This document shows, one piece after another, positions 5,062 to 40,014 of a stretch of DNA of 64,000 bases. The stretch covers positions 109,887 through 173,886 of the forward strand of contig NMRA01000298.1 in assembly GCA_002633005.1 (NCBI GenBank), written 5' to 3'. The notes below the pieces were generated by a model. The model saw only the letters and a list, made by a program, of their open reading frames with translations, had not been told where the DNA came from and searched no databases. Position 1 is the first letter of the stretch; every line of letters starts with the position of its first letter. This DNA is from Phoronis australis. Taxonomy: Eukaryota > Animalia > Phoronida. A program made the position numbers and the translations under genes.

Positions 5062-5067
5062 TTTATT
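5062..5067 (-). promoter_or_regulatory. Putative polyadenylation signal (AATAAA) for copy A
   Basis: Minus-strand AATAAA about 555 nt past the stop codon, conserved at the homologous position in copy B (50172-50177). Confidence 0.35.
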
Positions 5068-5621: not shown

Positions 5622-5767
5622 TCAGTTCACAGTAAAGACTTCGTTGACCACCAGACGACAACTGGAATCCCAGCAGGTGTAAGCGTTGTTGTAGCTGTAA
5701 CCAGGACACGTCTGTACGTACAGCCTTATGTTGTAGCTTCCTGCTGGAAGGTCGCACAACCCGCCAA
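5622..5767 (-). CDS. Copy A terminal exon: CTHRC1-like domain 3, part c
   Basis: Acceptor ttttcag, phase 1; translates (F)GGLCDLPAGSYNIRLYVQTCPGYSYNNAYTCWDSSCRLVVNEVFTVN-stop. It aligns by eye with the CTHRC1 C-terminus (EGLC..GAG...TC....STGWNSVSRIIIEEL). Two paralogs keep the same 146-nt length. Confidence 0.9.
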
Positions 5768-7197
5768 CTGAAAAAGATGTAGGGACACCATGTGGTTACC
5801 ATGGCAGAAATCAGAAGATAACCCTGCTACCTTAGGGTTGTGAGGACCTTATTGACATGTCAAATACCTGCAAAGCATATATTAAGTATTTCTGAAAACA
5901 GAGAGTTTGAAGAGTGTGATTTTTGATTTTTAATAATCTGTCATTAATTGGTTGACGTGACTACTTATATTCAGTGAAATTTAGCAGAGACGATACATTG
6001 ATAGCAAATCAACAGTATAAGTAACGTGATCGAAAAACATCTTTGATTTAAACGTACAAGATAAAATCAAAAAACCCTTCTAACAGTTTCTAAGGTATAT
6101 CGAACCTGCAAAAGTATTCACTTAAGGTAATGTGACATTACTACTCATTAACAGATGGTTAGTGAATTTTTTGCACTACAATATTGTCCAGTATCAAAAA
6201 TACAAGGCCGGGGTCTCCTCTTCCAAAAGAAATAGATCTTTCTGTGTTGACCTTTAGGACGTCCGACCCACCAAGTAAAACCAAACAAACAGTCGTGAAA
6301 ATCTGCGACATTTCTTGGATAGGCATGTACATTGTACAGGTACATAGAAACAAATGACTGTGTGAATTCAGAGTCCAAGGTTGTAAACATTGAAAATGTG
6401 ACATGAATTTGCAACCGTAACATCCATTTAATACTCATTGTTTTTTTATGTGTCCTGTAAGTGTGTTATTTCGTAGTGTGTGGCGTAGCGGTTCTATGCA
6501 ATACAAAGGCTTTCGATGAAACTTCATGCTCAACAACGTTTTAAGGTTATGCGTGACCTGATTGACAGGCCTGTCAATTTAGCCAACTACAGTTAGTTTT
6601 AATGTATCAAAAGTTGTAAAAATTGAAAACTATTTGAATTTCATTTTTGGCATTGCACCAATTTAACTTTAATTGGGTAGCGTGAACACGTGTTTTAGTA
6701 AACTTTAGGGAAAGCGAAAGGACAGCGGTATCAAGAACATGGGAAGAGTTTGTTTGACATAAATGTTGAAGATTATATCTAAAACTGTTACAGTATTCTA
6801 AGTTGTCATACTTTTTCGTTTTACACAAATTTTGAGCCTAATACTAAAAATCGTGAAAGTCATTCTTTGATATCGCTTCATACAAAAAACGTACACTTTA
6901 GCCGAATTTACTCAGTAGCAGACTAACGGAGACCAATGCATAAAGCAATGTAATCGAAAGCCAAGGCAATGATCTGCTAATGGTTGATCGTGCGTAAACT
7001 TCATAGACAATCAGGAAAAAACACTGCAGTCTTGCCCTTTCCTGACCTCCTCAGCTTAATTTTATTCCCGGGGAAAATTTGGCTGCCAAACGTTCCCTTC
7101 CGGGATACTAGAACAAAATCATGTTCAGCGAACATGATATGCTGCATAAAGTCCCGAAGAGGTCAGCCAACAGCGTGAAATAAGTTAGCGACTGAAG

Positions 7198-7973
7198 TAG
7201 CCAGCCAGCTAGCTGTATGAAGACTGTCGTTAAAATACAGCTTGTTACCACTGTGTGTTTTTCTTCCGTTGACCCCGAAATTGCCCACAGCCAGGGAAGT
7301 TCAGTTCTGCTCGTCACTTAGCTGTGAAACCTCTTTCAAAATGTCGAGCTAACGACCGGACGGGTTGCATGCATAATCTGAGTGTCAACCGACACTCACC
7401 TTGCCGTCACAACAGTTTAAGTGAAAAACAATGCAACAAATGTCATTTCCTTGCTTTATTTCCTGCTTTTTCTAACAAAGAAAATTGATGTCCTTGTTTT
7501 AAAAACAATATTATCGTGACACGAGCACGCGCCATTTCCTAATTTTTTGCAAAATCTCTCGGGAGATGATAACAGCTTGGCAGCAGCAAAATATCTTCTG
7601 AAATACAGTTTTCCGGTAACAAAATTCTTAATCTTGTAATGAAGTAAAACCAGTTCTCATATCTTGCTGTGACGTGTACGCAACCTCGTGAAAGAACAAC
7701 AGCTGATCGAAAAATCGGCTAAAAAGAAACTGGCCAATAGATTATGCAATATTTCATTGCGCCGAAAGCCAACGCAGAAGATCGCTCCAAAACTTTGGCA
7801 GCAGAGTAACAGTAAAACGCCAATTTTTCCATAATCAGAAAATATTTGTTACTTACTCATATACGTGTGTGGTTTTTAATGACACCAATTCTCTCTCAGA
7901 TTTTATCTTACCACTTCTTTACCCACATCGGCGCAAAGCTGTATATTTAGTATAGAGCGTTGTATCAAGGCTA
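7198..7973. mobile_element. Non-autonomous Academ(H)-like DNA transposon
   Basis: TAGCC...GGCTA termini with a 9-bp near-perfect TSD (cgactgaag 7189-7197 / cgattgaag 7974-7982). Absent from the paralogous intron of copy B (about 52140-52155). Confidence 0.7.
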
Positions 7974-8179
7974 CGATTGAAGGGTCTAGTTATATTGCGA
8001 TAATTGACTGGTCACTTTCTTTCGTTTCCGTGAAACTTGAGCATTCAGTTGTCAGCTTACATGTAGTTTCCTGGCACTTGGGATCGTAGCTTTTCATCCA
8101 TGTGTGTGTCATGCCGTTTTCTGAACGAGATCAAGTTGAACCAGCTAAAACAAATAAATGCAATACTGCTCTCACTTAC

Positions 8180-8405
8180 ACGATGATGTATGGTGTTGGT
8201 CATCATCCACATTGTCTGTTCTGTAGAACAGTCTTTGGTAGACAATAGTAGCAATTTTTCCAGGCGTAGAACATTCGGCCCCATTAAAGGTCAGATACCA
8301 ACGAGCGCAACCGGGTGTACCGTAACTTGACTCATATTGTCGTAAGTCACCGTTGTACTGAACAGATAGTAGACTTTGAGATGACTTCTTATTATAGGTG
8401 ACCGA
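8180..8405 (-). CDS. Copy A exon: CTHRC1-like domain 3, part b
   Basis: cag acceptor, gtaagt donor, phase 0->1, 226 nt. SVTYNKKSSQSLLSVQYNGDLRQYESSYGTPGCARWYLTFNGAECSTPGKIATIVYQRLFYRTDNVDDDQHHTSS contains the CTHRC1 hallmark CxRWYxTFNGAECS and ends in HxTSS. Confidence 0.92.
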
Positions 8406-9024
8406 CTGTGTGAAAAAAAAGAACACATAATGGTGTCAGTGACATTAAATTCAAAATGCTCTGGTAGTGTAGGCCGATACTCCCCACAGCCCAGCTGATA
8501 CGAAGACTACAGAAACTTGTACCTGACAATTGCCGGTCAACCCAAAGACCAGGCAACTTTCAAACCTAAGCCACCCGACAATGGGTATGCATCAAAATCC
8601 TATTTTTGAGAGTTGTACGATACCTAAACAGATAAAGTGTACTTTTTGCCAAACGATATACATGTGTAGTAAAAGGACAGCGGGTGTGCGTTCCGTAGAT
8701 ATCAGAATCTCACTATTTAAAACGCAAGAATACGGTACACCGTACGCCGTATATAACAAGCAAATATATTGATTACACACGCTACCGTAGAGAGTTTTCT
8801 AAAAGAATTAAACTCACAAAATTATGTATCGGTTCGGTGCAAGTTTCATACGCACCTACTCAAGTGACGCATGGTCACATCAAGCATTTGGTCATTTATT
8901 AAAGAAGACCACTGTACCTGATGTCCTTTATGAATATGCAAATATTTCCTGAATGTTACTAGCTCTATTTAACTAAATAAATGATCATGAGGAAAATGAG
9001 AACAAGATGGGGTTCAACACTCAC

Positions 9025-9131
9025 AATATTTCGGATATGCCCGTTGTCTGTATCGTCGTTCAATGACCACCACCACCACTGGTGAAAGTTGTACTCCGGC
9101 AGTCGCTGGACGCTGGCGTCACGTGTTACGA
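9025..9131 (-). CDS. Copy A exon: linker + CTHRC1-like domain 3, part a
   Basis: cag acceptor, gtgagt donor, phase 1->0, 107 nt. (V)VTRDASVQRLPEYNFHQWWWWSLNDDTDNGHIRNI aligns with CTHRC1 NYKQCSWSSLNYGIDLGKI. Conserved in copy B. Confidence 0.88.
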
Positions 9132-9545
9132 CTGTTATCAACCAAATACGATAGAGTATGGATTAACTGAAGACCACTTCATTACATTCGGTTTAAAGAG
9201 TTCCCACAATGACCCCGTGTCTCAAAAGGAATTTTATTATTACACCTTAATAGATTTAATAGTCTTTAGTACACCTGTTGCTACGAAACAAGCCAACAAT
9301 TTTAAAAATATATTTTTCTGATATCGGGTTTGTACGCAATGGGTGGAAGACCGCCTCTGCCGTTGTTGTGTTGCCAGTGTGATACTGAACTGACAATTTG
9401 TGAAGAAAGTCCGCGGAGAGCCGCCTTTTTCAGACATGAAAAGGTGCGCTTGTGGAAACTGTGGTAACAACAACTTGACTGAGAACGTCTCTGTGTTCAA
9501 TTATCCCAAATACGTGAAAGTTGCAAAGAAATGACATGGGTTTGT

Positions 9546-9693
9546 CATGGGCGGCGCTCTTTAGAGGTCTGAGGGAGAGCTATAGCCCCCAACTTTTTCA
9601 GTGCTAAGCAGCCCATGGTCTATAGGCGGCTCACCATAGGGGGACTTCAGGGGGGCTTTTATCCCCACTTTTTTCAGTGCTGCGCCGCACATG
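9546..9693. mobile_element. Small MITE-like element with inverted termini
   Basis: Inverted termini catgggcggcgc ... gcgccgcacatg; internal duplicated cccc(a)actttttcagtgct; lies in a stretch specific to copy A. No clear TSD. Confidence 0.45.
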
Positions 9694-11149
9694 ATTGTGC
9701 TCCGAACGAGACTTTGAAGTGTCAGTGTGGCCAGGAACATGAGATTCAGTCCGGCGAAAGCCGACACCTTGATCGGCACGTTTCAAAGAATCGTGTTTCG
9801 ATCACACACATAAGAGGCGTTACAATGAAGGACTCACCACCAAGTAAGTGTATTTGCAAATTTTGTAAATAACGAACAAACTGCTTCCATTCTAGGGCGA
9901 GTGGTGCTAGGCCCTGGAGCCTGACCCAGATCAAGTGCTACTACAAGTACATGTAGGCCTAGGTTTGTGCATATTACGTTTAGAGTGTGCTCATTGTGGC
10001 AATAGTGAATACGAGTAACCCAGGTTTACCTGGCCTTTGTCAGTAATTATTAAGTGTCTATTTTGTGAGTATTGACCACCACTTGGTAGAGTTGGTTGTG
10101 TCTCACATAGGTGTGCAGCATTTCTCGTGCAAGTGGGTCGAGTTCATACGGCATCAAAGGCGACGAAAGTTGAATAGGAAATCGAACTCATCGTCTGATT
10201 CCTAAGTACTTGAGTGTGATGCCCGCATCCGTTCTCCTCTCTGTCAGCGTAATGAATGTCCAATTCTCGACCAATACCGTCCTTGTCTTCTTACCTGCAG
10301 TGTTCCGACATGATTCAAATGATTGTCAAGCGGCCAACCGTCTTCCACCCACTGCGTCATTTGGCGGGAAAGTTAGAAATAGGTAATTTTTCTTCTAAAG
10401 TGTAAAAAAATGCGATTAGTTGCCATACAAATTGCCTATTTAGTAAGATCTTTTGATATTCGATTCATATCATCTAACTTAAACCTGAAAAGGTAAGAAA
10501 ATGCATGGTGGGAACTTTTTAATATTTTTCAGTGCAGATTTCGGTGCTTAAGCTCTGAGCTGCCAGTCCAGCCGTTGCAACGGACCTTCAGCTACTGTGA
10601 CGTAGTTCCAATACGTAAGCTGAATTTCTTGGTACAATGCGTTTAAAAAACATAATTTAATGAATCTAAAATTGAGTAAACTGTTCACCAATAGCCGTCA
10701 GCTTTTTTTTACAATCGTGGCATGGCATGAGCTTAGTCCAATGGCGGATTTATTGTCACTTTGTAATCTTACTCAGTGATTCGCAACATGGACGCTGTTT
10801 TGGTTGTTTCCGAGTTGCGTATCTCCTATTTTCTGGTTCTAATTTGATATGACTTTAATCTCTGAAATGCTGGGTTTAAGTAAGTACAAGAGTAGCTCAA
10901 CGTGAAATAAACAGAGACAGAGAAGAAACACTTTCATGAGCGATGACATTAATACAGTCATACCTCAACAAACTACAGTTGAGATTACGCCGGAGACCTT
11001 CAAAGGTTGTACGTGTATAACCGTTGTCAAGAATGCCCCATCAAATATATGAGAACATTAAACAACAGTTCTACAAAATACACTGTATACAGCAAGGAGA
11101 GGAAAATGAAAAGCAAAACAATATTGCGCTGATCACTGAGTACATTTAA

Positions 11150-14100
11150 GTGCTTGTCAATGAGAGCACCAGCCATCCAGCGGCAAGGTGGGGGTCAGCC
11201 AATTTTCACCAAATTTAACATATATGTACTCATATGGGATCTATAAACAGTGGTAAAGTATTTCCCAAAAATATCACGTTCTACCAAAGTTACAGGCTTA
11301 AACGGATTTTACGGCTTCGAAGCCATGTTTCACGCTGTAAAAACTCTCCAATTTTGACTGTTTGTATTTTTCCTTGAATGATATCTATTGAAATATTACT
11401 CACTTGGCATTGTTAAGTGGTGCCTGCAGATTGTTACACAGATGTCTTGAATAAAAGATTCCGATTTACCACCCTCGTTTAGTTGTTTTACTACACTATC
11501 CCCCCGTTATGCCATTTTGAGGTTATGTTCAATTCACTGCTGCAGTCTGCCAAATATGCCCCGACTGCTATGGGAATGAGACTTGGCCAAATTGTTGACA
11601 ACACATCTTACTTTCATTGAATTCAATAAATACTTTGGCAGCCAGTTTATAAGATATACATCTTGGCATATCAAATGTAATAAATTGAGAAATTTTCAAA
11701 TATCTCAGACCGTTGCGAGAGCACGTAAAATTAGATTGTCCTTAATGTTTTGGGACATTTTGCAACGAGGTTGTTCGTCCTGAAAATTTTGAATACTTAA
11801 CTACTTACCATCTAGGACTATAGTACTCCTAGATGACATACAGACCTCCATTTTTTAAAAAGCCGCTTATGTCCTCCCCAGTCCAGATGGTTAGGCATGA
11901 ACTCGACAAATGTAGCTTATTCTACATGGGTATTTCTTCACACCTATTCGAATTAGATTTTGTGTTGATTAAATGTTTATGCAATGCATTGTAATATAAA
12001 ATGAATGACAAGAATATTTTAAACATCTATGTTGAAAATATTCCTTGTGAAAAGATTATACACCAACCAAACACTTGTATACTACAATATATGCTTTTAT
12101 AATGCAATGGAAAGATAACTGCACGGTCAAAAGTGCAGATGTTATGACTCTAATAAAAATTGTTTGTACATATTTGACCACTCCAATTGCTACAGGACAG
12201 AGTCAACCACACAAAATCCATACAGTCAAGGAATTACATTTAAGGTGATGTAGTCTCACAGCAAAAAGAGATTTCGCAATAACGCTGACAACACTGTAAA
12301 AATCTACTTCTTTACAAACATGAGGTACATGTATCTGTAGGTACCACATCAATGTTCGTATCAAAAATAACCACTACAAAATGAGAAATTGGCTTGTCGG
12401 TTCCAATGCAGCAGCAATTTTGCAATGAAATAGTCATTAAAAGATACGTTTGCAACATCTCATGCATTGCAATTGCCATGCGATTACAAGGAGTCACCAG
12501 AGCTATTGTGCCAACAGTTTTAGATACTGCAACAGAAATCATTTGAAATGGACATACATGTAAACGTGCGTACTATAACATCAAACAACTTTTGATTTAG
12601 ACAAGTTACTATCATGATATAGGTATTATTTCCTGGTCACTTTTGAGCAATTTCAGAATTTCGAAAAAACTGGCAATATGCATTTGCTAGAGACCAAGAT
12701 CTATCAGATGGCTTGTCTAACAGTGTGTGGTTTTATGCACACATGGTCTCGAGGAATAGCAAACTGTGCATTCGCTGCAATTCTAGAAATCTCTTCCCAT
12801 CTGCATAAGGAACCAATTGAGAAATATTTAGAGGTAAATGGTCTAAATCAAAACTTTACCTCCTGGATGGACTGTGGATTTACAACCCAGGCTGAAAGAT
12901 AAGTGAGCAAAACCTGCAACAGGGGCTCAAGTGTCAGTAATAAGTACTCATTTACAAACAAACATCTATAGTGGTAAATAAAATGCGGAAACATAAATTC
13001 AGATCAATTTAATAATTTCAAGGAAACAAACAACACATTTGTCAGAAATCACGAAACAAACGTCTAAATTTGTTGTCCGCACACTAAGAAATCCTATCAG
13101 AACAAAAAATCCAGTCGCTAAAAAAAGAATAATGTACCAATCACCATGTGGCTGCACCAATACAATCCACTGTTCCAGGATCATGATCGGTGGCTGGCCA
13201 AAAATTCAATACAAGTAAATTCACACAGCAGTTCGGGTGCAAACAAAGCTTGCAACAACACATCAGCCTACTTTCCTACACAGCTGTGCTGACATAATGA
13301 AACCACCACTAGATTTAGCAGATCCGCCAGAGTATTTACAGGTCCAGCCACTGTACTGTTTCCTCTCTTTGAATTTTTACAATGCTACATCCTTGACAAT
13401 CTTAAAGCACAGATTGTCTCTTTCCAATGCATACTCCATTTCCTCTGTCATATGTCCTACATCCAACTGGCACAGTTTCCCCACAGTTTCTGAGGGTGGC
13501 CTATCTCAAGAAATTACTTTGGACCTGTTGTGATACATGTATAAGCCAGTAATCTTTGGCAAATACTTTTCCCCAGACTCGTTCCTCACATCTTCTGGGA
13601 GTAGACTTTTCGGCCTCTCTCTAGCCTCCTCACTTAGTTGTCCAGAAGGACACCTTCTTGCTGGTTTTTGAACTCAGCCTTTACTAATAATCGGCAGATT
13701 TCCAACTTCGGCAGAAGTCACTTCTTCAGCATATGCCTTTCCTGATTCCTAAAATTGCATTAATAAAATAATTAAACATATTAAATTTAATGTGGCCATT
13801 GCGGCTTTGAAAATATAAATACCTAGCTCAAGTGAAGTCATCACAAATAAGTCGTACAGAATTGATTATAAAACTTTAATAAATGAATTTCTACGTTTCT
13901 ACCTACCTGTCAGTAGTACAAAGGTATAAAACCCTAAAACTCAGAAATACACCGCATTTTGACAATCATATGAGGTAAACAGTAATTTTGAACTCTACTG
14001 CAAAATCAGCATGCATGACACAACACCGGCATCCTTTGCGTGGTTAACGGATCAATTGAAATTTTATGATAACCAGCTATTTTCTTTGTCAATGTTTGCA

Positions 14101-15459
14101 TGTACATACACTGCATATACTTCAATACTTTTGAAATAAGATATAATTAAGCAATAAGGCCCACTTTATAACCAATCACGGTGCTTCAATAAAATATTTT
14201 TGCATGAATGATGTGTTTCTTAAAATATTCTTAATGGTCTGACTCTTGAAATTGGCGATTCCTACACTGTACCTGTGCTCGCATGAAGCAGGACGTTGAA
14301 CCTTGACTTTACGTCTTTGGTCATTTTTCAGACCTCTGTCGGATTCCCATTCTTGTGTGCAGTAGATGTACTCAGTGTCTTTAACAACGCCAAATAAATA
14401 TTTCAAGGTTTGTAACTATGATTCCAGGAAGTGAATGTACAACGGTAGATAATCTACCTCCTGCTGCACACCTGCCTCCGAGGCAAACTACTTCTCAGGA
14501 CACGTTCCACCTCCTTCACATCCCTTCACTTTTAAGGTTCTCAAATGCCTCGCTGTATTCCTTGTGCATTTCCCAAGAGTCTTCAAAGTTGTTTCTCTCT
14601 TGGCAATTTGTAAAAACACCACATTTGATGCGGCTGGCAGTGCCAGATAAATAAATAAATTCGCAAACACGCACTTCAGTCCAGCCATCATTCAACTAAC
14701 GCAAATTGCATGCTTTGGTTTGGTATTCAATGAGTGTGATGGACAAATCTATTATAAATTTATATATGAATGGAAACTTTTTGTATTGGTTATAATTAAT
14801 TTAAAACATTTGAGCAATCCAATTATTTTAATTGTTGTATTATTCCACGGCATTTTGATGCGTAGCAACGGCGAACAACTAGTGACTGGTTCAACACGAA
14901 AAATACACATATGTGCGATTTGAAAATAGTGACACTCAGATACCTATTACCAAGCATCCCTGAAGGACTGACAAAGATTTTTTCGTATTAGTTTCAAGGG
15001 CATGGGGTCTACGTGCCCATGTCATCATTTTCAATTATCTCGTGGGGGCATCTTCACTATAAGGGTATAACTTACTGCTGGTTTTTAACAAGTATAAAAA
15101 GTACCTCCACGGAAACAGTTCGGTGTTACCATGGTAAGCGATATTTTAGTGTCGATGTCGTTTTAACTTACATAAGTAATGCAGCTCGTGATATCAAAAT
15201 TATTGAGAAAAGATTCTGTTTGGAGCAGAAACTGCAGTAGACATTGTAGTCAAAGATGACTCATTCCGCATCAAGAAATTGCCTTATTTTGCCTTTCAAG
15301 AAGACTTCCTTAGTATATCCTAAACCAACAAACTCTGTGGTATCATACTTCACCCAATTTTTCTCATCCCTAATGTGATTGATTAGACTGAAAATGGTTC
15401 TGAATGGCTGACCCCCAACTTTGTGGCTTGTTGGCTGTACTGGATCCGTGGACTAATGC
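11150..15459. mobile_element. Decayed 4.3-kb TTAA-flanked DNA transposon (Kolobok/piggyBac-type target site)
   Basis: TTAA at 11146-49 and 15460-63. Imperfect TIRs share cagcca...gggggtcagcca. Copy B has the empty site (gagtatatTTAAttcacctgcac, about 54725-54747). No intact ORF inside. Confidence 0.65.
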
Positions 15460-15474
15460 TTAACTAAAATTCAC

Positions 15475-15627
15475 CTGCACTGACGTCGACGTCATAGCGG
15501 ATCTCCTCGACAATGATCCTGTTTCTCTGTTTCCAGCCTGTGTAACCATTCATGAGTCCATCGTACCTGGCGATATGTATCTCAATAGATCTCCGTCCTG
15601 CTCTGATGTTATTGCACAGACCATCAA
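15475..15627 (-). CDS. Copy A exon: CTHRC1-like domain 2, part c (no stop; splices on to domain 3)
   Basis: cag acceptor, gtgaat donor, phase 1->1, 153 nt. DGLCNNIRAGRRSIEIHIARYDGLMNGYTGWKQRNRIIVEEIRYDVDVSA matches CTHRC1 EGLCEGIGAG...TGW....RIIIEE. Intact paralog at 54742-54894. Confidence 0.9.
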
Positions 15628-16606: not shown

Positions 16607-16785
16607 TTCCGCCGTTGGCGTCATAGGTGTGGTCAACAACATTCGAGTCCATGTGAGCGTAAATACCGTCTATGGCACCAGGGTTTGAACAGGCGTGGCA
16701 TTGCGCCTTGTGGGTAAATGTAGATGTTGGCCAGGAACAGAACTCGTACGGCCGTGTCTGTTGCTCTTTTGTAGTAATAGAACGT
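16607..16785 (-). pseudogene. Copy A exon: CTHRC1-like domain 2, part b, frameshifted by an internal deletion
   Basis: Good splice sites (tttcag / gtaagt). The 5' frame gives TFYYYKRATDTAVRVLFLANIYIYPQG and a different 3' frame gives HACSNPGAIDGIYAHMDSNVVDHTYDANGG. The RWYxTFNG motif is missing, and the length is 179 nt (3n+2) rather than 3n+1, so a premature TGA results. Confidence 0.8.
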
Positions 16786-16987
16786 CTGAAATTAATAAGT
16801 TACTTGCGTTCTTGAAGGAAAGTGCCCCTCGATTTATTTATTTTTGTTAAGGTCTTGATCTCTCTATAACCAGATCACCTCGTGAACAGACAATCTCATA
16901 GCGCCGAAAGCTATCGCGTTAACCTGTGAGGAAGGTGAGTACATGACGCAGCTACGTCAGTGGTTCTTCAGCTGAGTGTGTGCCGCT

Positions 16988-19389: not shown

Positions 19390-21328
19390 CATGTGCACAT
19401 ACTGAGCCACAACACCACGTTCCTTACACTATCCTTATTATCACTCCGGCTGGTCTACTCACTCAGCTTGTCCGGAACCTGCTTTGCAGATTGTTATAGC
19501 CCAGTTGGCTGTTTGATGTACCCACTTGGTACTTTATTATATGATATGTGCCCTTTTGCCAGTTGTACCCATTTGGTACTTGTTATTGAATTTGCCTTTT
19601 TTCTCGACCCAGTTGGTAGGCAATCGGCCAATACCCATTTCGTATTACGTAACCATTTGGTACTATGCTAACCTGCGTCACTTAGTATCCGATACTCATT
19701 TAAACATTGGGTATCGTAAGCGTGTGTGTTACGGATGATTTGCAGGTTATTGGGTTCATTATTTGTTATAAAAGTAAAGTCTTTTGTTTTGCTTAGCGTT
19801 AGTTTTCTGCCTCGCCGCTAGGCACTTTCCAGTCTATTGTTTCACTGATTTGCCATTTCACTCTGCCCGCATCATTTGAAGCGTTAAGTCTCTTACTGTT
19901 GTCTTGTACTAGTGATTTTTTTCTTTCGTTATCTGTATCATTTGTTTTGTTTTGTACGCACTTAGTACATTTTCATTTCTCTTAGTTTGTATATTTGTGT
20001 ACATGTAGATAGTATTGTATTTAATTTGCTAAATTCTTTTGTGTACTGTATAATTTGTTTCCATGGTCTGTTTTCTGCGTGTCTTTTGTTGGCCACGCCC
20101 CGTGTCAGCCATTTTGTTAATTGGGTGTTTTTTGTTATTTGCAGATAAGATTCGAACAAGTTTTGTATGGTATTCAGACATTTTTTCGCTGTGTTCATGG
20201 GCTACCTTTGGGCCACGGAACGGAAATAAAGATTACTATACCATAACATTTTTTCGTATTTTCACACGGCAACAGTGTGTGTTATCTCTTTTAATTAAGG
20301 AACCAGATGGGTTCCTTATGTGAATTATTCATTTGTAGAGCTGTGACCCTGAAATTCCCAATTCAACCTAAAATGCACATTATTGTTGTTGTTTTATTTG
20401 TCCCCAAAAAAGAAATTTATGGCACTCTGACATAAATGCCATATTTGGGCAAATAACATTCTGCAGCCCTTCATCCTTCATAACCAACTCCTAGTTAGCT
20501 CGAACCAAATCCGATGATAGCTCTGTTTGTTCTTTCTCTCCAGCTTCCTGTTAGTCCAGCCTCGAGCAACAATACATTCTCTCTTGAGTTTTCACAATTA
20601 GACCATTTGATACCTCTTCCACCCTCCCTACACTGGGTTCCAAAAATATCAATTCAACCAATCTATATCTTTCCCACCCTCCCAACCTTTTGTCGAACAA
20701 AATCTGCTGTTGGTTATTATGTTATTGCAGCCACTGCTGGTATGTACTTCATTCAAGCCCGTAGCGTGTTACCTTCAAGCACGAAGAGACGTCCATGGCT
20801 AGCGATCAGACCTGTACTCGAGTGTCTATCACTGCAGCTTGCATCTTTCCACCCCGGTCGCAGCTCTCAGCATATACTGAGCCAGAACACCACGTTCCTT
20901 CCAATATATTTTTATCACTCCGGCTGGTCTGCTCACTCAGCTTGTCCGGAACCTGCTTTGCAGGCTGTTATAGCCCAGTTGGCTGTTTGATGTACCCACT
21001 TGGTACTTTATTGTATGATATTTGCCCATTTGTCAGTTGTACCCATTTGGTACTTGTTATTGAATTTGGCGTTTTGCTCGACCCAGTTGATAGTCAATCA
21101 GCCAATACCCATTTGGTATTATGTACCCATGTGGTACTATGCTAACCTGTGCCACTTAGTACACGATGCTCAGTTGCACATTGGGTATCGGAAATGTGTG
21201 TGTTATCTCTTGTTATTAAGGAACCCATCTGGTTCCTTGTGTGAAATATTCATTTGTAGAGCTGTGATCCTGAAATCCCCAATAAAACCTAAAATATACA
21301 TAATTCTTGTTGTTTTATTTGTCCCCAA
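19390..21328. repeat. Diverged direct repeat pair (about 19390-20405 with an internal insertion, and about 20870-21328)
   Basis: catactgagcca..caccacgttcctt...gtacccatttggtacttgttattgaattt... occurs twice; 20275-20405 continues the match to 21195-21328. Confidence 0.85.
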
Positions 21329-28949: not shown

Positions 28950-29148
28950 CTTGGGCGGGGCGATAATCATCCCTTGCCTTGCCTTTATACCATGCTATCT
29001 CTATTTTTCCTGGAGAGGGACACTCTTCGTCATTAAAGGTAAAGAACCACCGCGCGCAACATCCGCCACAGTTGTAACTTGAGCGAACGACACCGCGAAA
29101 CCTCACCCTCAACGAAGTGTAAGAGTACTGCTTCTTGAAAATATTTGT
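28950..29148 (-). CDS. Copy A exon: CTHRC1-like domain 1, part b
   Basis: tttcag acceptor, gtgag donor, phase 0->1, 199 nt. TNIFKKQYSYTSLRVRFRGVVRSSYNCGGCCARWFFTFNDEECPSPGKIEIAWYKGKARDDYRPAQ carries the CTHRC1 motifs LRVxFxG and C..CCxRWxFTFNxxEC. Confidence 0.93.
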
Positions 29149-29368
29149 CTGAAACAATGCCGCAATTTTCATAATGCAGGGAATTTTACATGTAAGTACA
29201 AAACATTTTCTACCTCGAGAACAAAGAGTTCTTTGTGGGACGTAAGCACTCACTCAAAATTTAGTCTTTCCGAGTCAAATGTAAACGGAACATAGAAATT
29301 CGTTCCGGTACCCAAGTTTTACCCTCACTTAGGAATTACTAGACATTCCTTTCAGACCTCAAACTTAC

Positions 29369-29463
29369 CATTAAATTTCCGTTGTTTGTTCCAGTGGTGT
29401 AGTCGGAGTAATAGTAGTGTCGGATGTTAGCAACCGGAATTTTATCACATTCTTTAAAGGGAG
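29369..29463 (-). CDS. Copy A exon: linker + CTHRC1-like domain 1, part a
   Basis: cag acceptor, gtaagt donor, phase 1->0, 95 nt; PFKECDKIPVANIRHYYYSDYTTGTNNGNLM. Same phases and position as the domain 3 part a exon, and in frame with the next exon. Confidence 0.78.
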
Positions 29464-32400: not shown

Positions 32401-33180
32401 AATTTAATCTGAATATGGAAAACGGCCCCTGGAGTGATTTTTTTATTTCCTTTGATTTTCTAATAGAAGTTTTCTTAAGAGTGACTCCGTATAAAACCAA
32501 TAGGCGAAGTCTATACGATGTAATCAAAATCACAGATTTTTTTGAGACCTAGCACATTAGTTTGCTTTGTTTTTTAAGTGTTTTAATCTTTTATTTTTCA
32601 TTTTATGACATGAACCTCCATTTTGCAACAAAATCGGATGTCTAAGTAGACATGATTTCTTTTGATTTTCTCGTGAAATGTTTCTAAAGCTTGCGGCACG
32701 TAGAACCACCATAGTGTCGGGCGACTTCGTAAGATCGTGCACGAATAATGCAAAATTTCGCCGGTGTCTCGCTATATAAGTGACCATACTACCATACTCA
32801 CTCAAGTCAGCAGATTGGCTGGTTCTAAAACTACGGAAACACTACGCAAAAAGTAATATTTTCCCTGCAAGAAAACAATCAGCTAAGCTCTGGGATTTCT
32901 TGCACACTTGAAAGTGGGCACTAATAAAGATCGTGTACCTGTTACGAAAACCTACGTGGTTAAGATCCACAATTTCCATGATACCTTGAGGTTGGTCAGG
33001 GCTCAAAGTTTGTTGGAAATTAAAAGCACTTTTCAAACCAACCTTCACTCTGGGACACCTTGCATAGAATACCGTACCGACGAAGGTAGCGTCGGAAAAA
33101 GTTCCGTGCGTTTCCTATGAATTCTATCTTACCCACGCAGACTCCCACGTTGTTAGTACAGTCTTTCATACAAGCCTGCC

Positions 33181-33332
33181 TCCCGTTCAGTTGCGCTAGG
33201 ACCTAGCTTAAAAGCAAGACTTTGCGAGATTACGCGAGATGTTGCCGTGTATTTTAAATAAGAGCACGTAACCTTGACTAGCTTTTGGCTAGGTCCTAGC
33301 GTAGGTCCTAGCGTCTACTGAACGCACGCCTG
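33181..33332. mobile_element. Small MITE-like inverted repeat
   Basis: cgttcagttgcgctaggacctagc pairs with gctaggtcctagcg(taggtcctagcg)tctactgaacg. Confidence 0.55.
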
Positions 33333-34626
33333 GTCTCCGCTCGCGCAGTTGGCGTTTGCGCACTCGCTGCTTGTGTCCCCGTTGTTGTTGGTGTTGCCCT
33401 GAAAACAAGAAAGGCTTATGTCTACAATTTACGTCACTATAGAAAAGGTTTCGGAAGATTTTTTAATGCAAATTATCTCACCTGCTTCATTTATTTCCCC
33501 TTTTCTGCGATTTTCTCACTCAGCTGGACTTATGGTTTTAAGGGTGTTGCCCCTACGGACACAACCATAAATTAAAAACCTGCTGGGTTCAGCTGTTTAG
33601 GGACTTTTTGCGACGACAATTGTGATTGATCCTCTCACAGCGTCCTAGATCCAACGTCCTACAAAAGCATTCAAGATTTCAGCAAAGCCTACTTGTGCGT
33701 AAAATTGTCCAACGGAGTCTGTAGAAAGCTCCTTCACAAGCAAGAGCGGAGGTAGCTTGAGCTGGCCTAGTGTTTTTGTCTCCGCAGGTTTACTCGCACG
33801 ATAGTGGTGCAACAAAAAGCGACACAGATCAGAGTTCACATAAGGGGCCGTGGCCGGCAAGAACGCAGAATTATTTTGCTTCCTTAATGGTGAACAGAAT
33901 TTCACGCGGCTGGTCAGTCTATCCATGTAAATTTATATCAATTATTTTGCAACGAATTGGTGGGGATTTAAACCGGATGTTTGATGTTAACAGCATAAGT
34001 ACTGTACGTTAAAACTCCCAAATTCTAGAGAAAGCATCTGGGTTGACGGCCAATCTGCACGGGACTTCCTCAAGGTACTGTGCTTGTACTGTGTGCATGT
34101 AGTCTGGAACAAGTACCTGAGTACCATCGATAATGAAATCTTTCGCTGTTGTACATTCTTCATGGGCTACATGATCCCTGACCTTGGATTTAGTAAGTTT
34201 TATTTTGACGTGAATTGACGTTTTTTTCTTAATTAGTGTAGATGACGGTACATGTATACATATGAGGACCATCTCTTTCATCGTACCTCTGTTACGACTT
34301 CATTTGCACCTAAATACAATACTCAAAAAGAGGTTGCGTCATTTTCAGCGAAAATTAATGCATGGCAAATGTCGCCAACGTACTGGGTTGAACCAATAAA
34401 CAAAATGAAAAGATAACTGTATTGAATTGGTTTGGCCAATGAGCAAGATATTTAGCTCATTGGTCTCGCGAACAGTTAGTAATTGTATGTCGCTAGATTA
34501 TCTCCAGTGCTTTGTTAACAGTTGCCCTCTCTTATGTCAGTAATTTAGTATATTTATGCAAACACGACAACAACGTATATTGAGTCACACGTGCACTAGC
34601 TTTCTGGCATTTACTGTGTTTAATTC

Positions 34627-35021
34627 CTGATATACAACAAATTTGACGATATGTATCATGCTTCTAATATTCCCGCCCTCGGGTCCACTTTGTGCTCGTG
34701 ACTGCATCTGGTGGTAGCGTTCCTGGGAGAAGTAACACATTTGCATACATTTGTATCGTATTCGCAATAAGCTGCCATGCAAGCTGAATATCCCCTGCAG
34801 CCCACCGTACATTCTAACTGGCTTCTAACGCCACTCTGTTTCCCACAGAGTGATGGTGAAAGCAAATCGGATATATTAGACATAGTAGCAGTATATCCTA
34901 TCCTTAACGCTGAGCACTGATATGTCTATTATTCCGGAAAATAATGTTTCGGACAAGGAATCGTAAACAAACCAGATGACAAAAGCTTTGAAACAGGTAA
35001 TAAGATGTACTGTGCCTTCAT
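34627..35021 (-). pseudogene. Pseudogenised duplicate of the signal peptide + PAN/Apple-like exon
   Basis: Collinear with 39646-40014 but spread over several frames: ..FVIWFVYDSLSETLFSGIIDI / CSALRIGYTATMSNISDLLSPSLCGKQSGVRSQLECTVGCRGYSACMAAYCEYDT / CYFSQERYHQMQSRAQSGPEGGNIRSMIHIVKFVVYQ. About three frameshifts, and the donor GT is replaced by GA. Confidence 0.82.
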
Positions 35022-35134
35022 GTTACTGAAATTAAAGGCCTGCGTTTGCTGCAATGTTCCTATAGAATGCCAAACTGACGTATTGGTCAATTTGTTTGGC
35101 TTAATATACTTCGCACAAGACTGTTACCGGTGCT

Positions 35135-35300
35135 CTATTATTATTAAAATTGTTTCTGTTATTGTTAATTGCATTATCATCATTTTAAATGTTACTATTG
35201 CACTGTTTTATTACTACATTTGTTGTTGTCATCTCTATTAAAATTTATGTTACTATTATTACTATTATTGTATTTGTTACTGTTATTGTCATTATTATTC
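35135..35300. repeat. Degenerate (TTA/TAT)n low-complexity tract
   Basis: Runs of tattattatt / tactattatt / tgttattgtc are read directly. Confidence 0.8.
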
Positions 35301-38300
35301 TGCACAAGCGAGATTAATTTATGTTATCCAGTTAGCTGTTTGGACCGCAGTGACAAATTTGTGAGTTAAATCTCAAGTCACACCTCAGCAAATAATGTTT
35401 ATTTTTCGAGTACAACACTCTTGCGCTTAACAGGGGCAAGCCGGTACTCTTTCATTTAGGACCGTCGCTGTTATCTTCTCTTGTGCAGGTTTGGAGAGGT
35501 GCGCACGCGTAAGTTCACAAATTAGAATCGCTGGAGCAGGGCCTACACAGTTTCTTGTGATGAAATGTGAGTGAGGGATGTCACGCATGAGTGAGCACCT
35601 GATTTTTTGTGACTTCGTTCCACTTTTTTCTAGAAATATTGCTTTTCTGGAAGTGTTCATAAATTTCCTTCAATGACACCCATCAATTATCCCAAACTTT
35701 CCAATAATCCTTCAAATGCTTCCAAGTTTCCTCTAAATGTTTGAAACAAATCGGCAGGTACATGTATGTTGTCAGTGATTTCAATTCGTTTGATGTGAAA
35801 GCATCACAATAATAAACACGTGCCTAAAACGCTACTCAAATCTCGCTGTTCTACCGTTAGGACTTATAACACTTAACACTGTCAATGCGACAATATCAGA
35901 GGTTGTTCTCGGGTGATTGTGAGGAATTGGGTATTTGTTACATATTGAGGACCTTCAGGTGCAAGGGATTGATATTGGAGGCCAGTCGTTTGAAAGCAAT
36001 ACTAAGAATATCGACTGCTTTGGAGCCTCTTACGCATTGGAATCCTTCAAGTCGGATGATTTCTCATATACGTTGTATAGTTATTGTACACTGTGCAGTT
36101 TTTCTCATCAATCCACCCCAGGAAAGAATGATTTTAAATTACTCTTTTAAGATAACTGTAACAAAAGAACAATAGACAAATGTATATTTGCATTTATATT
36201 TTAGTTATTTCATACAGATATGTTATTCTTGCTAATGTATACATTTCCATTGCCACCCTAAAAAGTACTCAAACTTCCACTAAAGCTATGGCCACTTTAT
36301 TTCACTTGTTTACTATCTTTCATAACTGCTTCCTTCTAGTGAATGAATGAAAACAAAACATGTTCAGAATTTTGCTGTTTGTATAAATTTGCCAAAAATG
36401 TTTGTTGGATTTACAAAAAATGAGCTATTTCAGTGATGGTTATAGTAATTTTTTGCTGGGATGGACGTTTTACCTGCAAAGCAGGCCGATATGCGGGGCA
36501 TTCAACCTATTATCAAAACCTCTTAGAGTGAATAAAGGTTTTGCTTAGTGTTCATGTTATACTTTATACCGCATGTTTATTGGTGGGTCAAAACTTGAAT
36601 CAGACAAACAGTATTCATTATCTGTTAGAGCTGCAATATCTTGCATATAGTTCATTTCCTGAATAACTCATGGAGCGTCATTTCATATTTTATTCAACTC
36701 ATCACTTGCAATGCCAACCAGACAAAGGTGTTTTGTTACGTATTTAAACTTGCCTTGTTTAATGAATGTTCAATTGCTTTCAGGAATTCATCCAAGATTT
36801 CCAAAATAGCGTGTTCAAAAGGGATTCCCAATATTTCAGGATGTCCGTGATAACGACGATGCATTACCCAGACCGCCATGCACCACCAACCCCCACACCC
36901 CCACAGTGATTTTTTTACAAAAAATACGTAGACCAAGGCGTTTGCATCTGACTGTTCAAAATACCCGACCCCTTGTAACGAACTCTGTTACTAAAAATGC
37001 TTGGACCTAGAATCCTCGGTATACATTTACGAAAACAGTCAAGCAGCTTACCAAACAAATGTTAGATATTTTTACAATGCACTTTGCAGATGATGTGTGC
37101 TTTATATTTTGGCAGCAAGTGTCACTGCTGTTCCAAATTAAAACCATAAAATTCACATTGAAGTGCATGAAATAATATTTAGTTTGAATCGTTTGTATTA
37201 GGTTTGTCTAAAACTTACTTCAATCGGATCAGTGTGACGTTGAATCCCTGCAAGACCACAATAGTGACATTTGAAAGAAGGCATTTAGTTTCAACTTCCT
37301 TTTGATGCCTCTATGCTGAAAACGCAGACTTGCATATATGAATCCGAAACAGCGGCATTGAATCGACAGATGGGATAATACAAAGGCGAATTATTTATTG
37401 ATTCTTGTCCCATTATGGACTTGGAAGTGGTAATTAGGCGACATACTGGTTTACAATTATGTTGGTGCATGTAAATTATTAGTGTTGGTGACCGTCAATC
37501 ATGGGTGTCATGTGCACACACAATAGGCTTGGTCACAAAATATCCCAGTTACGTAAGTAAACACTGAATAACAAAGGGTCGGTCTTGGATGAGAAGATAA
37601 TTGTTTAATTATGCCTATGAGTTTTGAATAGCCAAGCATGGAATGCTGCAAAATGGGCATGACTTTCGGCAGCTAAATCAAAATAAGGTTTAGAAAATCG
37701 TGGGTCCTCCACACTCCCCAAATGATACACAGAATTTCAACCAGAAACTGGAGATAGATTGCAGTTATAGTGCAGTTGTAATCCAGTTGAAAGTTTTCAT
37801 ATGCAAATTAGTTACTTTACAACTTTCTTTACTCAAATTCCAAGAAGGGGTACATAAGAAAAGACCAAGCACTTCCATCAACCTTTCCCTATCCCCAGTC
37901 CTCTATTTTCTCAATGAATACCATATCACCGATAATAGCAAGACACAATACCCAGTAGTAACCTATTTAGACTTTATTAATGCTCCTACTGATCTGTCTT
38001 TGGCTTATACTCCATTGCCTGTGAGGTCCAGTTCATAGTACATTTTCCTGTAATAATGATATGACCATTCCTAGGTTGTGCAATTTGAGAACCAGATTTC
38101 CCCACTGAATAAAAGACATAAAATTGGTTGCCTCCCACCCCAGACGATGTTTTATATGATCTCTTTCCTCGCAACAAACCTCGGTCTACCAAAACTACTC
38201 AAGTTTGCTTGCTTTCAACCTGAGGCTGTCATCGCTCATCAACTGCTTTATGTTCAAATGGACTTGCTAACTGACTAGTTGTGCATATAGTCCCTGGTGA

Positions 38301-39645
38301 CAGACTATGGCAATGGAAATCAACGAATAACTACGCAATTCAAGTCCAAAGTCTTAAACTTCCCAGCGATAAAAATCCAACCCACAACCATCTACTGACA
38401 AACCACATTAATATTACACTCAGTTTCAGTCACAAGGTTCGCCTAGGCCACACTTCAAATCTTACTCCACTCGAGCAAAATCTCTACGAAATTTCCCCCA
38501 GGTAATGGTTTCATCTAAATTTAAGCGTAATAGTCAGATTGTTCAGTTCATATAGGGAGCAATATCGTCATCAACGTGGTGCAGAAACGAATAAATTACC
38601 TAGCTAAGGCGAACTTCTACTCTTTGAAGAAATACCTGAAACATTGACTATTTGTCAAGCACAGCATTAAAGATAACATTCGTTTGTTTTTATCATGCAT
38701 AATTTAAGAAAATAAAAAACAAAAAATAAAAGGAAGAATATGTACAGGCAGTAGACCAACCTCATACTTACCAAAAGTGCTAATTAATTAAGAGAGTTTG
38801 TTTCAAAGATTCTATTCATTTATGCAAATTCACAGTGTTTTTAAATCGGATCGTTAATTTGTTTACTGTGCGCAAACAAATAAAATGGAAGTTATCTGCT
38901 TCTACTAGGTTGTACTGTACATGTAGAACAAACGCCACTAGATTGAAGTTTGTCCCAACCAGAGACTCGATCAACTTCACGAAAGCGTTAACTTGCTTGC
39001 GTTGACCAGTATTAACATGCAGTTTTTTGTCTTCAATATGAGCTCCTTGTTGCATGGTGACATTTTCCTATAGCATAACTAAACACTTTTTTGATAAGAA
39101 AGGAATTGCAAATTACTTCAGTCCTTCAATCAGCAGATCTCCCTACTTATTTCCAATGATATTAAAAATAAAACTTAGAGTTCACTCTTTGGTCTGTTTC
39201 AAAGGAAAAAAATCGCAAGTAAACCTAAAATAATGCATGGACAAACAGCGTTTACAGGTCCACAAATGTGAAGAATATTGATGGAACTTGGTTTACACTA
39301 ATTTATGTACTGGGCGTACATCACATCAGAGTAAGACCCTCCTATGTATTCCTATTGCTCGTAACGCGACATTGTATCGACTTTGTAGGCAAAAATCGCA
39401 GTGCGCAAAAGGTCAAATACTACTTTCCTGAGTCCAATCAGGTTGGAGCAAAACACCAACATCGTAAAATTGTGTCGGAAAACATGTCAGTACATAATGA
39501 TTAGACTTATGACAGTAAACGAAATTATAAAAATCGAAATTGTAAAACCGGCTTTTACGTGTCGCAAACTGTCGCAAAACTCAAATAACGGCATTATGCG
39601 CAACCCATAAGCCGTGTTCATGTACTGTCGCAACCAGATTCTAAC

Positions 39646-40014
39646 CTGATTTGTTATAAAGTTGTCAATTCTTATCTTGTTTCCAAGATTTCTTCCCTGT
39701 TTCCTCGGTCTTCCCTGAGACTCCATATAGTGATAACTTTCCCGGGAGAAGTAGCATAGTCCTGTATTGTCTTCGTAGTAAGCCGAGGTGCAACCTGCCT
39801 CTCTCCTGCAGTAGAGTGCGCATTCCATTTCACTTCTTGTGCCACTTCGTTTCGCGAAGTATGACGGTGAAAATGATCCGGTTATACTTGAAACAGAACA
39901 AGTAGATGCCAGTGAAATGGCCGAGCAAATTTGGATTTTTTCAGCAAATAGTGTCTCAGATTGACAAAATTTAACAAAGTTTAAAAATACCGCTGTCCAA
40001 ACGGACAAAAACAT
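39646..40014 (-). CDS. First coding exon: signal peptide + PAN/Apple-like domain (probable 5' end of copy A)
   Basis: ATG at 40014 with a hydrophobic leader MFLSVWTAVFLNFVKFCQS. SGTRSEMECALYCRREAGCTSAYYEDNTGLCYF has the PAN Cys spacing C-x3-C-x5-C-x2-A..Y......C. Homology to the 34.6-35.0 kb copy ends at CAG/gttaga (phase 0 donor). Linkage to the downstream exons is inferred. Confidence 0.72.

What the first reader, a model, noticed from the sequence alone, without database searches (positions are those of the whole stretch)
5622..40014. Collagen-free, multi-CTHRC1-domain secreted protein with PAN/Apple and FN2 modules
Seen: minus-strand exons with canonical splice sites encode, in order, signal peptide + PAN-like, CTHRC1-like D1, FN2, CTHRC1-like D2 and CTHRC1-like D3 with a stop. 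The D1a-D1b-D1c-FN2 and D2c-D3a-D3b-D3c runs join in frame, and no Gly-X-Y exon was found. Established: canonical CTHRC1 is signal peptide + short collagen helix + one C-terminal globular domain; FN2 modules bind collagen/gelatin; PAN modules mediate protein or glycan binding. Inference: here the CTHRC1 globular domain acts as a repeated stand-alone module, and three in-chain copies might mimic the collagen-driven trimer in an ECM-binding or recognition protein. I do not know this architecture from described proteins but cannot confirm novelty. The PAN exon ends in phase 0 and D1a starts in phase 1, so a linking exon is unidentified.
Basis: partly seen in the sequence, partly recalled or inferred. 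Interest (0 to 1): 0.85.

Follow-up and report, generated by a model that had tools for sequence, protein, structure and literature searches.

The report
Collagen-free single-chain CTHRC1 trimer gene, damaged
This stretch holds a broken copy of an invertebrate gene whose intact relatives (annotated as uncharacterized in the brachiopod Lingula) chain three head domains of the matrix protein CTHRC1 without any collagen and are predicted to fold them into one C1q-like three-part head, likely a secreted surface-recognition protein; this copy probably adds a fibronectin type II module.

Summary
The exons are real: PAN, CTHRC1_C and fn2 pass Pfam cut-offs, splice sites are GT-AG, no Gly-X-Y run exists, and the last four exons are under purifying selection against a tandem paralogue (dN/dS 0.30). 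Domain 2 lacks its first exon and its second is frameshifted. So this copy gives no intact protein as assembled, and 23 of 24 RNA reads at a diagnostic base carry the paralogues' letter. Database relatives fix the architecture: five proteins (four from Lingula anatina, one unnamed) read signal peptide, PAN, cysteine linker, three CTHRC1_C domains, without collagen or FN2. AlphaFold2 models of two of them superpose across all three domains on engineered single-chain C1q (Z 26, about 340 residues), supporting the pseudo-trimer idea. I found no paper on this family. FN2 is the local addition, with no transcript junction seen. Verdict: new variant of a known kind; a real, undescribed family, seen here in a damaged copy; binding function inferred.

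The parts
39646..40014 (-). Exon 1: ATG, hydrophobic N-terminus (likely signal peptide) and PAN/apple domain; ends in phase 0
   Evidence: Pfam PAN_1 24.4 bits; N-terminal hydropathy 2.1-1.5 over the first windows (no SignalP run); aligns to the N-terminus of 4 Lingula-type homologues above all 200 shuffles
34627..35020 (-). Decayed second signal-peptide+PAN exon (pseudo-exon; start approximate): two frame changes, donor GT reads GA
   Evidence: tblastn E 2e-16 in two frames; six-frame view; 273 of 458 alignment columns identical to exon 1
33133..33398 (-). Linker exon (cysteine-rich module), phase 0 to 1, interrupted by an insert; in-frame stop as assembled
   Evidence: Strong acceptor and donor; 112 bp and open without the insert; its 3' half is the single best hit in the window (E 4e-4) for an HMM of the homologues' linker
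33174..33332 (.). MITE-like insert of 154 bp between two copies of a 5-bp direct repeat, with paired ends
   Evidence: Direct repeats at 33332 and 33178; ends pair in a DNA fold; RNA depth in the hundreds with many different flanks at 33330-33334 and 33178, i.e. a multi-copy repeat
29369..29463 (-). D1a, first exon of CTHRC1_C domain 1 (phase 1 to 0)
   Evidence: HMM from homologues 29.5 bits, E 3e-8; splice sites
28950..29148 (-). D1b (phase 0 to 1)
   Evidence: Pfam CTHRC1_C 46.1 bits
26437..26595 (-). D1c (phase 1 to 1)
   Evidence: Pfam CTHRC1_C 33.1 bits
24782..24949 (-). FN2 exon (phase 1 to 1), sitting in the intron between domains 1 and 2; absent from the PAN-bearing homologues found
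   Evidence: Pfam fn2 59.9 bits; in frame with D1c; low sense-strand RNA depth at 86% likeness in 2 of 3 raw runs; no junction read listed
16607..16785 (-). D2b, broken middle exon of domain 2: phase-0 acceptor, phase-1 donor, frameshift and shortening in the middle. D2a not found
   Evidence: 179 bp where 3n+1 is needed; front half and back half match the homologues' domain 2 in different frames
15475..15627 (-). D2c, last exon of domain 2 (phase 1 to 1), open
   Evidence: Pfam CTHRC1_C 23.4 bits, under cut-off; 93% identical to the paralogue's exon with the same size and splice sites
9025..9131 (-). D3a (phase 1 to 0)
   Evidence: Matches the homologues' D2/D3 junction; conserved in paralogue B
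8180..8405 (-). D3b (phase 0 to 1)
   Evidence: Pfam CTHRC1_C 51.0 bits
5622..5767 (-). D3c with stop codon; an AATAAA lies at 5067
   Evidence: Pfam CTHRC1_C 29.3 bits
50573..54894 (-). Paralogue B, 3' end: D2c' 54894-54742, D3a' 54046-53940, D3b' 52576-52351, D3c' 50718-50573 with stop; its 5' exons were not found in the window
   Evidence: Self-BLAST; open spliced frame, 93% identical to copy A, dN/dS 0.30, Fisher p 2.5e-4
42833..42978 (-). Paralogue C remnant: a lone last exon D3c'' with stop
   Evidence: Pfam CTHRC1_C 28.5 bits; dN/dS 0.03-0.05 against A and B on 146 bp

Best explanation
The exons are one damaged member of a tandem cluster of a collagen-free gene (signal peptide, PAN, cysteine linker, three CTHRC1_C domains, here probably with an added FN2 exon) whose intact product is predicted to fold its three domains into a single-chain C1q/TNF-like head and likely acts as a secreted surface- or glycan-recognition protein. 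How it would work: canonical CTHRC1 brings three heads together from three chains with a collagen helix; here triplication puts three diverged heads on one chain, so the helix is not needed and each third of the head can evolve its own binding face. PAN and the linker form an N-terminal accessory arm. The FN2 exon was shuffled into the phase-1 intron between domains 1 and 2 and would hang from that inter-domain loop as an extra anchor (collagen or matrix binding is textbook FN2 behaviour, recalled, not tested). Shown: exon structure, domain identity, family membership, lesions, selection on the 3' exons. Predicted: trimer packing (two homologues, not the window protein). Inferred: secretion, ligand class, FN2 inclusion. 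This copy is most likely a null allele or young pseudogene; expression in the RNA runs comes mostly from paralogues.
For: One gene: the top rows of an HMMER search of 1.84 billion proteins are SP-PAN-linker-3x CTHRC1_C proteins, two more came (Pfam); tblastn lays PAN, linker, D1, D2b, D2c, D3 on the window in that order; the D2c/D3a junction matches the homologues' D2/D3 junction; the interrupted exon supplies exactly the missing 0-to-1 phase and matches the homologues' linker (score above all 200 shuffles for 2 of 6 PAN-bearing homologues, 2 and 4 of 200 for two more). Real coding exons: dN/dS 0.30, p 2.5e-4. Trimer: AlphaFold2 pTM 0.72 and 0.71; best PDB matches span all three domains: single-chain C1q 5hzf Z 26.5, 337 residues, 3.4 A and Z 26.2, 340 residues, 3.2 A; single-chain adiponectin, Cbln1, APRIL-BAFF-BAFF Z 21-26; next rows Z 9 and 12. 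Lingula domains group by position in a tree. Recognition role: best single-domain matches include the TNF-like lectins BC2L-C-Nt and PLTL (Z 8.7-11.6); birth-and-death cluster with remnants; a three-C1q mussel protein binds LPS and peptidoglycan (PMC5519582, abstract). Damage; 23 of 24 reads at position 5757 carry the B/C letter.
Against: No splice junction of this gene appears in the joints shown (9 rows, 15 rows shown, 35 hidden), so PAN-linker, D1c-FN2 and FN2-onward joins are unproven. The window's own protein could not be folded; the folded homologues are about 30-40% identical in the domains and lack FN2. AlphaFold2 has seen the engineered single-chain trimers in training (recalled), which may favour such packing, and no monomer or shuffled control was run. 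Position matching of the window's domains is mixed: D3 scores best on homologue D3 in 3 of 5, D1 on D1 in 2 of 5, D2c on D2 in 2 of 5, D2b front on D2 in 4 of 5; tree support for D3 with D3 is 88/85, unstarred, bootstrap not settled, and D1 and D2 are unresolved. The linker match is not above chance for 2 of 6 homologues. Pgp3, not a known lectin, ties or beats the lectins as single-domain match; a shared fold shows no function. The RNA is from other individuals and unknown tissue, so an allele could explain the 5757 letter. 10 of 37 direct-repeat pairs in the linker exon also give an open 0-to-1 exon; the chosen pair is singled out by keeping all five cysteines and by the repeat edges in RNA.
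Confidence: 0.62

Rival explanations
1. Same family and same single-chain head, but the role is developmental or matrix signalling like vertebrate CTHRC1 (binding Wnt/Frizzled/Ror2 or modulating TGF-beta and collagen deposition), with FN2 tethering it to collagen.
For: The only functional data on the domain family are of this kind (PMC7058181, introduction read); FN2 module present; 3' exons conserved.
Against: Rapid tandem turnover with pseudo-exons and remnants is less typical of a dosage-sensitive signalling gene (inference); domains are at most 39% identical to canonical single-domain proteins in the tree alignment; FN2 is absent from all 6 PAN-bearing homologues.
Confidence: 0.2
2. This copy is still functional in a shortened form: the insert is spliced out as a GC-AG intron (its ends read CAG|GC ... 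CAG|) or is absent from most alleles, and FN2 splices straight to D2c or D3a, giving a two-headed protein of about 526-577 residues.
For: PAN, D1a-c, FN2, D2c and D3a-c are all open with canonical sites; both skips are in frame; a GC donor in phase 0 and an AG acceptor would remove the insert exactly; exon 2' of PAN decayed long ago while D1 stayed intact.
Against: The GC donor is weak and the acceptor has no pyrimidine tract; no such joint was listed although the insert has RNA depth in the hundreds; exon bins of PAN, D1 and FN2 have mean depth 0-0.4 at 92% likeness; a head missing one third would expose a trimer interface (inference).
Confidence: 0.12
3. The blocks belong to different genes or to remnants of different paralogues (for example exon 1 of one copy, D1-FN2 of another, D2c-D3 of a third) left side by side by deletions in the cluster.
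For: Two first exons lie in a row; copy C is a lone last exon; 8 kb largely covered by repeats separates FN2 from D2b; no junction reads.
Against: Order, phases and junction sequences match single-chain homologues end to end; FN2 read-through stops within a few codons of a strong donor. A chimera of paralogues would still share the same architecture.
Confidence: 0.06

Closest known systems
Lingula anatina uncharacterized proteins XP_013395411.1 (LOC106162620), LOC106180315, LOC106178942, XP_013399537.1, XP_013419939.1, and an unnamed protein P0004
   Same: Signal peptide, PAN_1, four-cysteine linker, three CTHRC1_C domains (two in XP_013419939.1), no collagen; same D2/D3 junction; about 30-40% identity in the domains
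   Different: No FN2 module; open reading frames intact; linker has four cysteines against five here; only automatic annotation, no study found
Canonical Cthrc1 family (Leclere et al. 2020, PMC7058181); Pfam PF25815
   Same: The C-terminal globular domain; secretion; tandem gene clusters in invertebrates
   Different: Defined there as signal peptide + collagen helix + one C-terminal domain; collagen-free forms are reported in the text read only for choanoflagellates, dinoflagellates and bacteria; here no collagen, three domains, PAN, linker and FN2
Engineered single-chain C1q/TNF trimers (PDB 5hzf, 5hkj, 4dou, 5kca, 4zch)
   Same: Three jelly-roll domains on one chain packed as a trimer; Z 21-26 over 335-352 residues to the homologue models
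   Different: Artificial fusions, 6-9% sequence identity; the family here is natural and its structure is only predicted
Invertebrate multi-C1q proteins, e.g. mussel HcC1qDC6 with three tandem gC1q domains (PMC5519582)
   Same: Secreted-type protein with three tandem C1q-fold heads and no collagen named in the abstract; a precedent for the design and for microbe binding
   Different: True C1q domains; no Pfam C1q hit here; no PAN or FN2 named
Oscarella pearsei protein P0003 (collagen + 4x CTHRC1_C + fn2)
   Same: FN2 inserted between tandem CTHRC1_C domains
   Different: Has collagen, no PAN, four domains that group with each other and not with the window's: probably an independent combination

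Membership tests
Canonical Cthrc1 (Leclere 2020) | N-terminal signal peptide | tested here: inconclusive
   Hydrophobic N-terminus by Kyte-Doolittle only, no later segment above 1.31 over 19 residues; no SignalP available
Canonical Cthrc1 (Leclere 2020) | Collagen triple-helix (Gly-X-Y)n segment | tested here: not met
   No run of 4 or more triplets in six frames of the window or in 6 of 6 PAN-bearing homologues
Canonical Cthrc1 (Leclere 2020) | A single C-terminal globular domain | tested here: not met
   Pieces of three domains in the window; three in 5 homologues
Pfam PF25815 CTHRC1_C domain | Profile score above the curated cut-off | tested here: met
   D1b 46.1, D1c 33.1, D3b 51.0, D3c 29.3 bits against 27; D2c 23.4 and D3a 15.7 below; D1a and D2b no hit on their own
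Lingula-type PAN-linker-3xCTHRC1_C family | N-terminal PAN domain | tested here: met
   Pfam PAN_1 24.4 bits; alignment to homologues
Lingula-type PAN-linker-3xCTHRC1_C family | Cysteine linker between PAN and domain 1 | tested here: met
   Exon 33398-33133, interrupted; best HMM hit in the window; significant against 4 of 6 homologues
Lingula-type PAN-linker-3xCTHRC1_C family | Three whole domains in one reading frame | tested here: not met
   D2a not found, D2b frameshifted: this copy is a damaged member
Lingula-type PAN-linker-3xCTHRC1_C family | Position-specific orthology of domains 1, 2, 3 | tested here: inconclusive
   D3 with D3 at 88/85; D1 and D2 unresolved; mixed pairwise scores
C1q domain-containing proteins | Sequence match to the C1q domain profile | tested here: not met
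   No C1q family in Pfam scans of window exons or homologues
C1q/TNF fold superfamily | Jelly-roll domains packed as a trimer | tested here: met
   On predicted models of two homologues only; window protein not folded
C1q/TNF-like lectins (BC2L-C-Nt, PLTL, invertebrate C1qDC) | Carbohydrate or PAMP binding | not testable with these tools
   Fold match only, Z 8.7-11.6; binding residues not compared
Fibronectin type II module | Profile match with four cysteines on a phase 1-1 exon | tested here: met
   Pfam fn2 59.9 bits; 168-bp exon
Fibronectin type II module | Gelatin/collagen binding | not testable with these tools
   Needs a binding assay

The most novel reading that the evidence does not exclude
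Lophophorate animals have an undescribed, fast-turning-over family of natural single-chain CTHRC1 heterotrimers that act as PAN-armed pattern-recognition lectins, in this lineage fitted with an FN2 matrix anchor; they show that the CTHRC1 head is itself a self-assembling TNF-like ligand-binding trimer independent of collagen, and give a one-chain reagent for solving the first structure and ligand of the domain.
Probability: 0.35. Interest if true: 0.7.

Novelty: new variant of a known kind. Interest (0 to 1): 0.45.

Why it matters
The CTHRC1 head has no match among solved structures by sequence (0 hits at E up to 1) and its C1q-like fold rested on ab initio models (PMC7058181). A natural animal protein that strings three such heads without collagen, and whose models superpose on single-chain C1q, supports that fold and its trimeric state and is an easy object for structure and ligand screens. 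It also extends the published picture, in which animal Cthrc1 is collagen plus one head. Limits: the core architecture already sits in databases as uncharacterized Lingula proteins, tandem three-head designs are known for C1q proteins, and the copy in this window is broken.

Tried and rejected
No whole genome is held for the window, so intact paralogues could not be sought. Run search: no RNA holder listed; four same-species runs were added. Word-index protein searches with single exons were nearly blank: 0 of 12 candidates, 1 of 682. A collagen or EGF linker exon was sought and not found. A simple search for uninterrupted 0-to-1 exons between PAN and D1a, and 1-to-0 or 1-to-1 exons between FN2 and D2b, gave none at the thresholds used. 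I first took the strong acceptor at 16923 for a decayed D2a; dropped, because a repeat edge lies at 16903 and an HMM of the homologues' D2a finds nothing there. D2b also matches the family in its first frame through to two stops; I prefer front half in frame 0, back half in frame 1 because the latter is open and has the right length, but the exact lesion is not fixed. No phase-0 acceptor near D1a is open; five weak phase-1 donors in or after the PAN exon exist. Pfam found nothing in 36 other window frames (introns, repeats, broken pieces). ESM Atlas: D3b gave CTHRC1_C clusters at 0.86-0.87, leads only; P0002 no usable hit. Literature: six searches showed no paper on PAN + CTHRC1_C proteins; most subscription journals are outside the library. 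Earlier findings: nothing by place, by sequence or by the full word set. No complex prediction was run: single exons are not whole domains. The species was not determined.
Full report
Observation. The window is animal-like DNA of 36-43% GC per 2-kb bin with no N; no whole genome is held. All ten introns of the model are GT-AG. D1a-D1b-D1c-FN2 and D2c-D3a-D3b-D3c translate without a stop. No run of four Gly-X-Y triplets occurs in any frame.

The locus is a tandem cluster. Self-comparison shows 4.6-15.8 kb repeated at 49.8-55.1 kb (copy B: D2c'-D3c' with stop) and the last exon again at 42.8-43.0 kb (copy C). Both lie upstream of the PAN exon on the minus strand, so they are 3' ends of other copies. 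A and B keep the same exon sizes and splice sites, are 93% identical over 630 coding bases against roughly 75-85% in blocks that are mostly intron, and show dN/dS 0.30 (21 synonymous, 22 non-synonymous differences; p 2.5e-4). A second signal-peptide+PAN exon near 35020-34627 has two frame changes and a lost donor.

The missing linker exon. A strong acceptor at 33398 and a strong phase-1 donor at 33133 bound a 266-bp exon with an early stop. Between two copies of a 5-bp direct repeat lies a 154-bp piece whose ends pair; RNA reads cover it hundreds deep and run off into many different flanks at its edges, so it is a multi-copy repeat. Without it the exon is 112 bp, phase 0 to 1, with five cysteines. 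Control: 10 of 37 direct-repeat pairs in the exon would also give an open exon, so the frame alone proves little; homology decides it (below).

Domain 2 is broken. Exon D2b (16785-16607) has good splice sites but 179 bases where 3n+1 is needed, and is 20-47 bases shorter than D1b and D3b. Its front matches the homologues' domain 2 in one frame and its back in another. No D2a was found by tblastn or HMM; most of 16.5-23.1 kb is covered by repeat-derived reads. As assembled, PAN joined to the linker stops at residue 150 and PAN joined to D1a stops at 153.

Relatives. HMMER over 1.84 billion representatives with a three-exon profile gave 380 hits at E up to 0.001; 150 were listed, 15 with more than one matched stretch. 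I scanned those 15 and 6 single-stretch rows: 4 of 21 carry PAN_1 with two or three CTHRC1_C domains, 1 of 21 carries fn2 (Oscarella, with collagen and four domains), 0 of 21 carry both PAN and fn2. A further search added two Lingula proteins with PAN and three domains, no fn2. Names: Lingula anatina uncharacterized proteins, one unnamed Logan protein, and a two-domain Bugula protein. All have no collagen run (6 of 6). Their alignment shows a cysteine linker between PAN and domain 1 in 5 of the 6 PAN-bearing proteins; an HMM of it finds the 3' half of the interrupted exon as the only significant hit in 64 kb (E 4e-4). tblastn places PAN, linker, D1, D2b, D2c and D3 on the window in homologue order, and the D2c/D3a join matches their D2/D3 join. 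Mis-predicted Lingula models break at the same places as the window's D1b and D3a acceptors (P0153, P0152), suggesting shared intron positions (inference). Against: assignment of each window domain to its positional counterpart is weak. The organism is probably a lophophorate or near relative; this is inferred from nearest hits only.

Structure. The window's spliced protein could not be handed to the folding tool, so two homologues were folded with a 59-row alignment: Lingula P0002 (pLDDT 76.5, pTM 0.72) and the unnamed P0004 (73.8, 0.71). The three domains are mostly confident; PAN and linker are not. In both, the five best PDB matches are engineered single-chain trimers of C1q, adiponectin, Cbln1 and APRIL-BAFF-BAFF, aligned across all three domains at Z 21-26 and 3.2-3.9 A, far above the next rows (Z 9 and 12). 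Best single-domain matches are chlamydial Pgp3 and the TNF-like lectins BC2L-C-Nt and PLTL. The two models share most of their alignment, so they are not fully independent. FN2 would fall in the loop between domains 1 and 2.

Expression. Three raw RNA runs (18-19% of each read) and one contig set of the same species label were laid. At 92% likeness the bins holding PAN, D1 and FN2 exons have mean depth 0-0.4 and none of 9 listed joints is a junction of this gene. At 86% the last exon has 5-12 reads per run, mostly in the sense expected for a minus-strand transcript; at 5757, 23 of 24 reads carry the letter of copies B and C, and 10 of 21 and 11 of 25 carry B-specific letters at 5661 and 5687. 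The FN2 bin rises to 0.8 and 1.7 in two runs and stays 0 in one, which hints at an expressed paralogue with FN2. Fifteen joints were shown and 35 hidden; none shown belongs to the gene. The family is expressed at low level; copy A seems nearly silent in these samples.

Mechanism. See Best explanation: triplication replaces the collagen helix as the way to assemble a three-part head (predicted); the protein is likely secreted and binds surfaces or glycans (inferred from fold neighbours, C1qDC precedent and cluster turnover); this copy is probably null. My odds for the steps: family and single gene 0.9, single-chain trimer 0.8, FN2 part of the transcript 0.75, this copy non-functional 0.8, recognition rather than signalling role about 0.5.

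Literature seen. PMC7058181: parts 1-5 of 8 of the text (abstract to most of the discussion), term passages, and term searches in the supplementary archive, where the eight Lingula sequences shown do not resemble the PAN-bearing proteins by eye; its supplementary tables were not viewed and may list collagen-free sequences. PMC5519582: abstract and outline. PMC10672478 and PMC13425148: passages only. Six searches listed no paper on this architecture. Exon-shuffling of phase 1-1 FN2 modules, FN2 collagen binding, and the term MITE are recalled knowledge.

Verdict. Observation partly confirmed, interpretation partly supported. A real and apparently undescribed domain architecture with good predicted support for a natural single-chain trimer, already present in databases without FN2, and seen here in a damaged copy. 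New variant of a known kind; interest 0.45.

Noticed in passing
window 11910-14553 (minus strand), inside the D2c-D3a intron: A transcribed stretch absent from copy B, with a spliced GT-AG intron (joint 13747-14272, 20 reads over three runs, at 86% likeness) and depth 20-70; no Pfam hit in ten frames tested. Probably a repeat family or nested non-coding transcript.
   Followed up: partly
window 33174-33332: The insert's ends read as a GC donor and AG acceptor that would remove it exactly, as for intron-generating transposons; no such joint was listed.
   Followed up: partly
window 16607-16785: The same DNA in exon D2b resembles two different parts of the CTHRC1_C motif in two frames (HMM 28 and 8 bits); probably chance.
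   Followed up: partly
window 19395-19731 and 20870-21205; 20275-20407 and 21196-21328: Direct repeats at 87-90% identity within a highly transcribed repeat element (depth above 250 in two runs, plus-strand sense).
   Followed up: no
window 1-404 and 4246-4649: 404-bp direct repeat, 92.6% identical, 4.2 kb apart.
   Followed up: no
window 58614-59325; 60532-61477; 40261-40558 with 60358-60661: A 348-bp unit in two copies, a diverged 450-bp tandem duplicate, and an inverted 300-bp repeat pair.
   Followed up: no
P0003 (Oscarella pearsei): Collagen + four CTHRC1_C domains with an FN2 module between domains 2 and 3: FN2 and CTHRC1_C paired a second time.
   Followed up: partly
P0012, P0019, P0024, P0052, P0121: CTHRC1_C also occurs fused to folate-receptor repeats and as three to eight tandem copies in other proteins, two of them bacterial-looking fibres ending in three copies.
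   Followed up: no
P0008 (Bugula neritina KAF6026444.1): A bryozoan protein named CTHRC1 with two domains and no collagen hit; may be a fragment of the same family.
   Followed up: no
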